The translations under genes and the position numbers were made by a program. A stretch of 64,000 nt of DNA, taken from positions 57,476,001 through 57,540,000 of the forward strand of contig CM059432.1 in the NCBI GenBank assembly GCA_030390025.1, written 5' to 3'. The notes beneath the pieces were generated by a model. That model saw only the letters and a program-made list of their open reading frames with translations. It was not told where the DNA came from and did no database searches. Shown here piece after piece: positions 43,128 to 45,560 of this stretch. This DNA comes from Squalus acanthias (lineage: Eukaryota). The number at the start of each line of letters is the position of its first letter. The stretch's first letter is position 1.

Positions 43128-45560
43128 CAAAGGAGAGGGGCGAAGCAGACATTGCTATCAGGGGAGAGGAGTGTGAAATATTAGATGAAATAAACATAGT
43201 GAGAGAGGAAGTATTAAGGGGTTTAGCAGCTTTAAAAGTGGATAAATCCCCAGGCCCGGATGAAATGTATCCCAGGCTGTTAAGCAAAGCAAAAGAGGAA
43301 ATAGCAGAGGCCCTGACCATCATTTTTCAATCCTCTCTGGCTTCAGGTGTGATGCCGGAGGACTGGAGGACTGCTAATGTGGTACCCTTGTTTAAAAAGG
43401 GAGAAAAGGATAGACCGAGTAATTACAGGCCAGTCAGCCTAACCTCGGTGGTGGGAAAATTATTGGAAAGAATTCTGAAGGACAGGATAAATCTTCATTT
43501 AGAAAGACACGGATTAATCAAGGATAGTCAGCACGGATTTGTTAAGGGAAGGTCGTGTCTGACAAACTTGATTGAATTTTTTGAGGAGGTAACAATGAGG
43601 GTAGATGAGGGTAGTGTGTTTGATGTAGTTTATATGGACTTTAGCAAGGTTTTTGATAAGGTTCCACATGGCAGACTGGTCCCAAAGTTAAAAGCCCATG
43701 GGATCCAGGGCAAAGTGTCAAGTTGGATTCAAAACTGGCTCAGAGACAGGAAGCAGAGGCTATTGGTTGATGGGTGTTTTTGTGACTGGAAGGCTGTTTC
43801 CAGTGGGGTTCCGCAGGGCTCAGTACTAGGTCCCTTGCTTTTTGTGGTATATATCAATGATCTAGACTTGAATATAGGGGGTATGATTAAGAAGTTTGCA
43901 GATGATACTAAAATCGGCTGTGTGGTTGATACTGAAGAAGGAAGCTGTAGACTGCAGGAAGATATCATTAAATTGGTCAGGTGGGCAGAACGGTGGCAAA
44001 TGGAATTCAATCCGGAGAAGTGTGAGGTAATGGGCCGAAAATTGATCCCGGGACGCGAGAGTACGCACTGCATACTCTCGCGTATTCCCACTCCAATTGC
44101 CGGTTTTCTGCATGCCCTGCGCATGCGCTGAAAACCGGCAATTGCTCTTCCGAAAAGGGGGCGGGGCCTGGGTGCATCGCGTGCGCGCTACAGGCTGCGC
44201 GCACGCTGTGCACTTCATGCTTTGGACGCGCAGGTAAGTAGGGAAGATTTTGGAAATGTAAAAAGGAGGAGTAAGACCCGCTTTTAAGAAGGTAAGTAGT
44301 GAATTAAGTATTTTTTTGAATTTTTTTTACAGGTATATCTTTTTTATAGACTTTAAAGACAGGTAAGTTTATTTTTATAACTTTTTAAAAGATTTTAAAT
44401 TTTTTCAAAAATTTAATTTTTTATTTAAAATGGTTAATTTAATTAACTATACTTATTTTATTAATGTGATGGTTTTTTTTTTAATTTAATTGAGGTTTAG
44501 CTGTTATTTTGGGGGGGTGTAAGATTCATAAGTCTCACAGCCATGCTGTGAGACTTATGAATGGAAGATGGTGTGCTGCCATTGGCTCTAACTGAGTCAC
44601 GTGATCCCACAGCTCGCACGAATTCACTACGCCGCTGGGATACGCAAGCCCAGCACAGCTGATGTCTGGAACATCAAGTTCGTGCGAGCTGGATCAGAAA
44701 AAGCATAAGCGAGGTGAGACATCGCGGGGAAGGCTTACCCCCGCGGGAACAGAGCGAGATCAATTTCTGGGCCAATGCATTTGGGGAGGGCTAACAAGGA
44801 AAGGGAATACACATTAAATGGTAGGACACTGACTTGTGTAGAAGAACAAAGGGACCTTGGAGTGCATGTCCACAGATCCCTGAAGGTAGCAGGCCAGGTA
44901 GATAAGGTGGTTAAGGAGGCATACGGAATGCTTGCCTTTATTAGCCGTGGTATAGAATGCAAGAGCAGGGGGGTTATGCTTCAACTGTATAAAACACTAG
45001 TTAGGCCTCAGCTAGAGTACTGCGTGCAGTTCTGGTCACCACATTACAGGAAAGATGTGCTTGCACTAGAGAGGGTACAGAGGAGATTTACAAGGATGTT
45101 GCCGGGAGTAGAGAATCTTAGCTATGAGGAAAGACTGGATAGGCTGGGTCTGTTTTCCTTGGAACAGAGGAGGCTGAGGGGAGACCTTATTGAGGTGTAT
45201 AAAATTATGAGGGGCATAGATAAAGTGGATAGAAAGGACCTTTTTCTCTTAGCAGAGGGCTCAAAAACCAGGGGGCACAGATTTAAAGTAATTGGTGGAA
45301 GGTTTAGAGGGGATTTGAGGGGAAATTTCTTCACCCAGAGGGTTGTGGGGGTCTGGAACTCACTGCCTGAAAGGGTGGTAGAGGCAGGAACCCTAACCAC
45401 ATTTAAAAAGTACTTGGATGTGCACTTGGGATGCTCTAACCTGCAGGGCTACAGACCAAGAGCTGGGAAGTGGGATTAGGCTGGATAGCTCTTTGTTGGC
45501 CGGCGCAGACACGATGGGCTGAAATGGCCTCCTTCCGTGCTGTAACTTTCTATGATTCTA
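43128..45560 (+). mobile_element. CR1 ORF2 3' half, young; reading frame intact apart from the MITE
   Basis: ORFs 43199-44031 and 44775-45479 join in frame (KCEVM|HLGR); (TTCTATGA)n tail. Confidence 0.93.
44032..44773 (+). mobile_element. Non-autonomous Harbinger-type MITE (742 bp) with internal hairpin array
   Basis: TIRs GGGCCGAAAATTGATC / GATCAATTTCTGGGCC; perfect AAT TSD. Confidence 0.92.

What the first reader, a model, noticed from the sequence alone, without database searches (positions are those of the whole stretch)
44032..44773. MITE family conserving an ordered array of five hairpins while the stem sequences change (partner at 9434-10194)
Seen: the two ~750-bp elements are homologous in opposite orientation and share TIR type, the GCGCATGCGC block, an AT-rich core and ATTGG..CACGTGATCCC. 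Both carry palindromes at five corresponding positions. In this copy: 44053-44083 (11-bp arms), 44094-44144 (15 bp), 44179-44206 (10 bp), ~44259-44288 (imperfect), 44524-44562 (18 bp). In the other: ~10140-10176, 10083-10131, 10053-10080 (12 bp perfect), 9924-9960 (14 bp perfect), 9655-9692 (17 bp, 1 mismatch). The last aligns as ATTCATA-agtctcacagc-cat-gctgtgagact-TATGAA versus ATTCATA-tatttgacagg-tctt-cctgtcaaatg-TATGAA, i.e. four paired substitutions that keep base-pairing. The third has unrelated sequence at the same position. Inference: a non-coding DNA transposon whose interior is constrained for structure (structured RNA, cruciform or ssDNA fold), which cut-and-paste MITEs are not expected to need. 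Template-switch repair of palindromes is the neutral alternative.
Basis: partly seen in the sequence, partly recalled or inferred. Interest (0 to 1): 0.8.

Follow-up and report, generated by a model that had tools for sequence, protein, structure and literature searches.

The report
Harbinger MITE with co-evolving hairpin arms
Two diverged copies of a small non-coding cut-and-paste jumping gene keep three fold-back palindromes in the same places although both arms have changed in step, most likely because one arm gets copied onto the other in the DNA rather than because the element makes a structured RNA.

Summary
The two elements (44032-44773 +, 9434-10194 -) are real, homologous, non-autonomous PIF/Harbinger-type MITEs: 3-bp duplication shown against an empty site, short TIRs of the type carried by DDE/Myb-bearing Harbinger remnants in the window. 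All ten listed palindromes exist, and these 1.5 kb hold 8 of the window's 17 exact hairpins of 10 bp or more. But only three stems (1, 2, 5) are kept in register; the fourth is half lost in one copy and the third pair is mismatched. In the three, 9 of 47 pairs changed on both sides and all 9 still pair (P about 5e-4). The signal looks like DNA, not RNA: no strand bias (G-T 6, A-C 5), no excess of G-U-path changes, no Rfam family. Unrelated Harbinger-type ends in the window are also hairpin-rich (6 of 13 versus 37 of 429 controls). Best reading: arm-to-arm copying (template switching) in transposing lineages; selection on DNA structure for mobility remains open. Only two copies could be studied, so no real covariation test was possible.

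The parts
44032..44773 (+). Copy A: 742-bp non-autonomous Harbinger-type MITE, inserted in a LINE reverse-transcriptase frame
   Evidence: host frame 43022-44128 matches RVT_1, E 1e-32
44029..44031 (+). Left copy of 3-bp target duplication AAT (right copy 44774-44776)
   Evidence: empty paralogous LINE site at about 31626-31628 has one AAT
44032..44050 (+). Left TIR of A (pairs with 44755-44773, 80% over 20 nt)
44053..44083 (+). Stem 1 of A; in register with 10173-10143 of B; 2 Watson-Crick double changes, 6 single
44094..44144 (+). Stem 2 of A enclosing the GCGCATGCGC block; in register with 10132-10082; 2 double changes, 2 single in 14 outer pairs
44172..44213 (+). Stem 3b of A (17 bp, 2 mismatches); same place as B 10028-9981 but not alignable
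44255..44291 (+). Remnant of stem 4 in A (8 of 16 positions paired in both copies); GTAAG in the loop of both copies
44292..44523 (+). AT-rich core, 70% identical to B, with splice-donor-like GTAAG motifs
44524..44562 (+). Stem 5 of A, perfect 18 bp; in register with 9693-9654; 5 double changes (4 Watson-Crick, 1 T-G), 1 single
44581..44609 (+). Conserved ATTGG and CACGTGATCCC block (CCAAT-box-like and E-box-like; labels recalled)
44610..44691 (+). Stem 6 of A (perfect 13 bp, enclosing two small hairpins); not in register in B
44723..44745 (+). TIR-proximal 7-bp GC hairpin of A's right end
9434..10194 (-). Copy B: 761-bp relative of A, older-looking (12 of 119 stem pairs mismatched against 4 of 87 in A), in a LINE fragment; triplets ATT/ATA at its ends
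10053..10080 (-). Stem 3a of B, perfect 12 bp; no strong counterpart in A, likely a gain in B or a loss in A
9981..10028 (-). Stem 3b of B (16 bp; two T-G mismatches at TpG sites that look like CpG decay)
9924..9960 (-). Stem 4 of B, perfect 14 bp
9648..9699 (-). Stem 5 of B with outer extension (24 bp, 3 mismatches)
9450..9531 (-). Two right-end hairpins of B (9531-9489, 9480-9450), partly built of T(A/G)CG(C/A) motifs

Best explanation
The two elements are divergent members of a non-autonomous PIF/Harbinger-type MITE family whose palindromes pair equally well on both DNA strands, and their arms most likely change in step because a mutation in one arm is copied onto (or erased from) the other by fold-back template switching in the lineages that keep transposing. 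Shown: MITE anatomy, three stems in register with paired changes, strand symmetry, gain or loss of other stems, hairpin-rich ends in other Harbinger-type elements. Inferred: the element is moved in trans by a Harbinger transposase plus Myb-like protein; a short motif, T(A/G)CG(C/A), repeated 13 times in each copy in both orientations, is a candidate Myb-like site array that seeds and anchors some TIR-proximal palindromes; copying happens mainly in source lineages (for instance during replication or gap repair after excision), because the resident older copy shows uncorrected decay.
For: Doubles exceed independent change: 9 of 47 pairs doubled, all paired, 8 Watson-Crick, against 3.9 doubles and 19 singles expected; permutation P 4.6e-4, 7.3e-4 with the failing stem 4 included; 37 of 46 pairs kept against 55% expected, P 2.8e-4. 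Stem 5 diverged as fast as the AT core (71% versus 70% identity) yet stayed paired, which copying predicts and stepwise selection does not. The 8 Watson-Crick doubles are 2 transition-type and 6 complement flips, compatible with the background between the copies (36% transitions, 43% flips; P 0.40 and 0.07) and low against the 61% transition-type share of rRNA compensations in PMC8794818 (P 0.04). No strand preference. Stems come and go (3a, 4, 6-8). Template switching is reported to make and perfect hairpins and to give compensatory changes without selection (PMC5453318, PMC8794818; passages).
Against: No loop inversion or other direct footprint of a template switch was seen. Ordinary non-Harbinger DNA of the window has few such hairpins (37 of 429 segments), and copy B's stems carry 12 unrepaired mismatches in 119 pairs, 4 of them CpG-decay-like, so copying at the genome-wide rate cannot be enough; a lineage-specific boost or some selection has to be assumed and was not shown. 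Stem 2 is better conserved (84%) than the core, and the first 119 nt have no indel, which suggests constraint. The AT core may itself be constrained, which weakens the equal-rate argument. Two sequences give one comparison; the stems were picked because they were seen.
Confidence: 0.5

Rival explanations
1. The hairpins are selected as DNA structures (cruciforms or single-strand fold-backs) that raise excision, synapsis or copy gain of Harbinger elements; sequence is free, pairing and distance from the TIR are not.
For: Exact spacing of stems 1 and 2 from the TIR; 7 of the 8 tiles with folding z below -4 among 320 tiles are Harbinger-type ends, four of them in these two copies; unalignable families also carry a hairpin within 130 nt of the TIR (6 of 13, P 6e-4); strand symmetry fits a cruciform; only 37 of 206 stem pairs touch the repeated motif. 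Internal MITE sequence can tune transposition without a shared sequence motif (mPing, PMC9921582, passages).
Against: Stem 4 is half lost in A and right-half stems are not in register; stem 5 is not slowed; 6 of 8 doubles need a non-pairing intermediate if made stepwise; several Harbinger-type ends have no hairpin (2034, 22740). No assay.
Confidence: 0.22
2. The palindromes are inverted pairs of binding sites for the Myb-like partner (or host factors); both half-sites change together as protein specificity drifts, and folding is incidental.
For: Harbinger3_DR's Myb-like protein binds a 9-bp subterminal motif (PMC9710019, passage). Other elements here have clear motif arrays in both orientations (CCCGCC 9 times, GGCGCTA 6 times per element). 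T(A/G)CG(C/A) occurs 13 times in each copy, several at matching positions; the B-derived word TGCGC is enriched in A (7 versus 2.5, P 0.012).
Against: The motif was chosen after the fact; 4 of 6 cross-tests were not significant. It touches 23 of 87 stem pairs in A and 14 of 119 in B and none of stem 5, where most compensations lie; 18-bp perfect arms are longer than such sites.
Confidence: 0.13
3. The element is transcribed and the stems are a conserved RNA structure (leader of the parent's transposase mRNA or a non-coding RNA or microRNA-like precursor).
Against: G-T 6 against A-C 5 (6 against 4 in the named stems); RNA folding energies favour no common strand (left ends -106/-104 and -90/-89; right ends prefer opposite strands in A and B); few G-U-path compensations; no Rfam match at gathering score, best weak scores 22 bits against cut-offs of 80-99; stems 1, 2 and 5 face opposite ends of the element.
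Confidence: 0.1
4. Chance plus ascertainment: hairpins inherited from one palindrome-rich ancestor, with the best-kept ones noticed.
For: Only two copies; stems 1 and 4 alone are not significant (P 0.20 and 0.69).
Against: All 9 doubles in three stems keep pairing; the result holds with stem 4 included; folding z down to -10.
Confidence: 0.05

Closest known systems
Non-autonomous PIF/Harbinger elements (Tourist-like MITEs such as mPing; zebrafish Harbinger3N_DR) - PMC2836001, PMC9710019, PMC9921582 (passages read)
   Same: 3-bp target duplication, short TIRs, no coding frame, neighbours with DDE_Tnp_4 and Myb_DNA-bind_5 sharing the TIR type, repeated short subterminal motif.
   Different: Longer (742-761 bp against the 100-500 bp given in PMC2836001); six to eight internal hairpins with paired changes between relatives, which the passages read do not describe; parent element not identified.
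Harbinger-N12A_XT and Kolobok-N2_XT MITEs of Xenopus tropicalis - PMC12676858 (passages read, supplementary figure not seen)
   Same: Vertebrate MITEs with TIRs and internal repeats of palindromic nature.
   Different: No compensatory change between subfamilies is described in the passages read; no sequence comparison was possible.
Template-switch mutation creating and maintaining hairpins - PMC5453318, PMC8794818 (passages read)
   Same: Perfect Watson-Crick arms, several paired changes in one stem, new stems appearing.
   Different: Described for human DNA, rRNA and microRNA; here it would act repeatedly inside a transposon lineage; no loop inversion seen.
Angel MITE fold-back amplification model (Izsvak et al., seen only as summarised in PMC5172404, passages)
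   Same: A vertebrate MITE whose palindromic DNA is proposed to fold back during replication.
   Different: Angel is one whole-element stem-loop; here there are many local hairpins between short TIRs and a normal 3-bp duplication.
Hairpin-recognising HUH systems (IS200/IS605, REP/RAYT, Helitron-like HINEs) - IS200/IS605 from abstract listing PMC6006769; the rest recalled
   Same: Subterminal secondary structure in a mobile DNA.
   Different: This element has true terminal inverted repeats and a target duplication and shares its TIR type with DDE elements.

Membership tests
PIF/Harbinger MITE | 3-bp target-site duplication | tested here: met
   A: AAT on both sides, single in the empty paralog. 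B: ATT/ATA, 2 of 3, single triplet in the empty paralog.
PIF/Harbinger MITE | Short terminal inverted repeats | tested here: met
   20 nt at 80% (A), 19 nt at 89% (B).
PIF/Harbinger MITE | No coding capacity | tested here: met
   Of 49 stop-to-stop frames of 150 aa or more, five touch the elements; two of them match RVT_1, in the flanking LINE part only, three match nothing.
PIF/Harbinger MITE | Ends shared with an element encoding DDE transposase and Myb-like protein | tested here: inconclusive
   TIR type GG(G/C)NNN(A/G)AAATT is shared with ends at 2034 and 37422 (next to Myb_DNA-bind_5 frames) and 59995 (next to a weak DDE_Tnp_4 match, E 0.008); beyond the TIR no end aligns (best z 3.0 against 14-26 for A versus B), so the actual parent is not in the window.
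PIF/Harbinger MITE | High copy number | tested here: inconclusive
PIF/Harbinger MITE | Extended target preference around the triplet | tested here: inconclusive
PIF/Harbinger MITE | Binding of the Myb-like protein to a subterminal motif | not testable with these tools
   Candidate motif only; the primary paper was not held, so its motif was not compared.
Structured non-coding RNA | Match to a curated family | tested here: not met
Structured non-coding RNA | Strand-specific G-U tolerance and folding | tested here: not met
   G-T 6, A-C 5; no common preferred strand; low power
Structured non-coding RNA | Significant covariation over many sequences; expression | not testable with these tools
   Only two copies available; no stranded read data obtained.
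HUH/rolling-circle elements (Helitron-like, IS200/IS605) | No terminal inverted repeats and no target duplication | tested here: not met
   TIRs and a 3-bp duplication are present.

The most novel reading that the evidence does not exclude
Harbinger transposons of this genome use DNA secondary structure, not only sequence, in their subterminal regions: an array of cruciform or fold-back hairpins at fixed distance from the TIR is selected because it promotes mobilisation or copy gain, so that a DDE cut-and-paste element evolves like a structured nucleic acid, with free sequence and conserved pairing.
Probability: 0.22. Interest if true: 0.75.

Novelty: new variant of a known kind. Interest (0 to 1): 0.42.

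Why it matters
Paired changes in stems are usually read as proof of a functional RNA. This family shows them in a cut-and-paste DNA element with no strand bias, so it is either a clean natural case of arm-to-arm copying mimicking RNA covariation, or a hint that Harbinger mobility depends on DNA structure. A high-copy family with many subfamilies makes the two directly separable, and bears on the open question of why some MITEs out-amplify their parents. The five paper searches aimed at this (listings only for most hits) showed no report of in-register compensation in a Harbinger MITE; Repbase, Dfam and subscription journals were not searchable.

Tried and rejected
More copies: no own genome is held; no third copy in the window; pattern scans gave 3 metagenome, 36 prokaryote-genome and 1 viral-contig matches, none homologous (0 of 40 with blastn E below 1e-3), so all were rejected as chance. 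Read-level variation among family copies was not obtained, which leaves covariation, copy number and expression open. Small-share RNA rows (0.04-0.10) are no evidence. Earlier notes held no look-alike stretch. A parent element among the window's Harbinger remnants: rejected, interiors do not align. A specific subfamily motif in stem 5 (CACAGC in A, TGACAG in B) changing in concert across the element: tempting but the cross-test failed (1 against 0.3 expected, P 0.27). Rfam microRNA-like hits: far below cut-off, generic hairpin matches. One search used wrong registers for stems 4 and 5 and was replaced; its numbers are not used. The 9-of-11 count for other ends used a hand-picked set (4 TIR-like sites left out, 4 found by eye added); the unbiased count is 6 of 13. 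The folding scan used 20 shuffles per tile and covered 257 plus 63 tiles; the one strong non-Harbinger tile (53601-53800, z -5.3) counts against full specificity.

Full report
What is there. Copy A runs from 44032 to 44773 (+) and copy B from 10194 to 9434 (-). They align over their length, best in the first 119 nt (no gap), the AT-rich core (70% identity) and around stem 5 (71%), poorly in the middle (47%) and the right GC-rich part (46%). No third copy is in the window. A interrupts a LINE reverse-transcriptase frame (RVT_1); a paralogous LINE stretch has the empty site with one AAT, and A is flanked by AAT on both sides. B has ATT/ATA and an empty paralog with a single triplet. The TIR pattern GG(G/C)NNN(A/G)AAATT occurs 17 times in the window against 2 expected; several of these sites stand next to frames matching Myb_DNA-bind_5 or DDE_Tnp_4, the two proteins of PIF/Harbinger elements (PMC2836001, PMC9710019, passages). 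So these are non-autonomous Harbinger-type MITEs. The parent is not in the window: beyond the TIR no other end aligns.

The hairpins are real and extreme. Eight of the 17 exact hairpins of 10 bp or more in 64 kb are in these two elements. The four GC-rich arms fold with z of -5.0, -10.6, -6.2 and -4.8. A strand-neutral finder gives six GC-containing stems that I name in A and eight in B, more than the five listed.

The array is only partly conserved. Stems 1, 2 and 5 are in exact register. In their 47 pairs, 27 sites differ: 9 pairs changed on both sides, all still pairing (8 Watson-Crick, 1 T-G), and 9 on one side. Independent change would give 3.9 doubles and 19 singles; permutation P is 4.6e-4, and 7.3e-4 when stem 4 is added. 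Per stem the signal is strongest in stem 5 (P 0.009), weaker in stem 2 (0.04), absent in stem 1 (0.20) and stem 4 (0.69). Right-half stems differ in position. These P-values come from one pair of sequences and from stems picked because they were visible.

DNA or RNA. Mismatches inside stems are G-T 6 and A-C 5 on the common strand (6 and 4 in the named stems, of which 5 look like CpG decay). Both strands fold alike with DNA and RNA parameters, and the right ends of A and B prefer opposite strands. Of the 8 Watson-Crick doubles only 2 can pass through G-U; 6 are complement flips. That is compatible with the background differences between the copies (36% transitions, 43% flips) and is low against 61% for rRNA (PMC8794818, passage; P 0.04). 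Rfam gives nothing at gathering score and only generic weak hairpin hits. An RNA role is therefore unsupported, though with low power and without expression data.

Not peculiar to this family. In a folding scan of 320 tiles of 200 nt, 8 have z below -4: four in A and B, three at other Harbinger-type ends (7801, 21801, 3801) and one in a retroelement frame. Among the 13 other pattern-picked TIR-like sites, 6 have a hairpin scoring 9 or more in their first 130 nt, against 37 of 429 control segments (P 6e-4). In two of the other families the palindromes are built from a short family motif repeated in both orientations, as expected for Myb-like site arrays (a 9-bp subterminal motif is bound in Harbinger3_DR; PMC9710019, passage). 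A and B carry a looser array, T(A/G)CG(C/A), 13 times each (chosen after the fact; one B-derived word is enriched in A at P 0.012, 4 of 6 cross-tests fail). It touches only 37 of 206 stem pairs and none in stem 5, so site arrays explain a minority of the pairing. A and B remain the most structured elements of the window.

Mechanism. If a mutation in one arm is either erased or copied to the other arm, stems diverge at the background rate, with the background spectrum, almost only by doubles, without strand bias, and new stems arise while others lapse. Stem 5 fits all of this. Template switching is reported to do these things (PMC5453318, PMC8794818; passages). Against it: no loop inversion is seen; B keeps 12 mismatches in 119 pairs, so resident copies are not repaired fast; and other DNA of the window lacks such arrays. 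Copying must then be concentrated in the transposing lineages (inferred; replication or gap repair after excision would expose single strands), or selection must help. I put this reading at 0.5, selection on DNA structure for mobility at 0.22 (supported by the fixed spacing to the TIR and the recurrence in unalignable families; internal sequence does tune mPing mobility, PMC9921582, passages), binding-site dyads at 0.13, RNA at 0.10, chance at 0.05.

What is known. Internal palindromes in vertebrate Harbinger and Kolobok MITEs are reported (PMC12676858, passage; its supplementary figure was not read), secondary structure in Tourist-type MITEs and a fold-back model for Angel are old ideas (PMC5172404, passages). 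PMC11872487, PMC9392472 and PMC3016246 (passages) added nothing on internal hairpins. The primary Harbinger3_DR paper was not held. Nine paper searches were run; their listings showed no report of in-register compensation in such an element. Earlier notes on the same genome describe Harbinger MITEs with splice-like signals kept from a parent's leader (e1-7806580, e1-9864992); A has five GTAAG words on one strand, but whether it is the same family was not checked.

Verdict. A real and statistically supported feature of a known kind of element, overstated as five conserved stems and as an RNA-like constraint. New variant of a known kind; interest 0.42, limited by having two copies; 0.75 if selection on DNA structure were shown.

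Noticed in passing
3805-7567: Near-complete Harbinger-type element: DDE_Tnp_4 frames on + (4036-5123) and a Myb_DNA-bind_5 frame on - (6734-7375), matching TIR-like ends, and GGCGGG-type motif arrays forming hairpins at both ends.
   Followed up: partly
21859-23421: Two adjoining Harbinger-type MITE-like units (inner TIR-like ends at about 22740 and 22753) with GGCGCTA arrays and strong hairpins; CpG o/e about 1.
   Followed up: partly
7570-7989: Element end with a TIR-like start at 7989 (-), a 29-bp imperfect hairpin (7881-7939) and several smaller ones; abuts the right end of the 3805-7567 element; other end not found.
   Followed up: partly
59995-61720: Harbinger-type left end with a hairpin starting 60 nt from the TIR at a CCAAT word, close to where stem 2 starts in A and B (63 nt), interrupted by another repeat, then splice-like words and a decayed DDE frame; no significant alignment to A or B.
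   Followed up: partly
19762, 3805 and copy B: The word TTGACAG recurs in three unalignable Harbinger-type ends (CTGTCA 5 times near 19762, TTGACAG 4 times in B, once near 3870).
   Followed up: no
53601-53800: Only strongly folding tile (z -5.3) outside Harbinger-type ends; at the end of an open frame with RNase H and integrase domains (53666-54898, -).
   Followed up: no
44234, 44271, 44292, 44363, 44519: Five GTAAG donor-like words on the + strand of A; one lies in the loop of stem 4 in both copies.
   Followed up: partly
63234-63890: Frame matching Lipase_GDSL_2 (E 3e-11), likely a LINE ORF1 esterase (label recalled).
   Followed up: no
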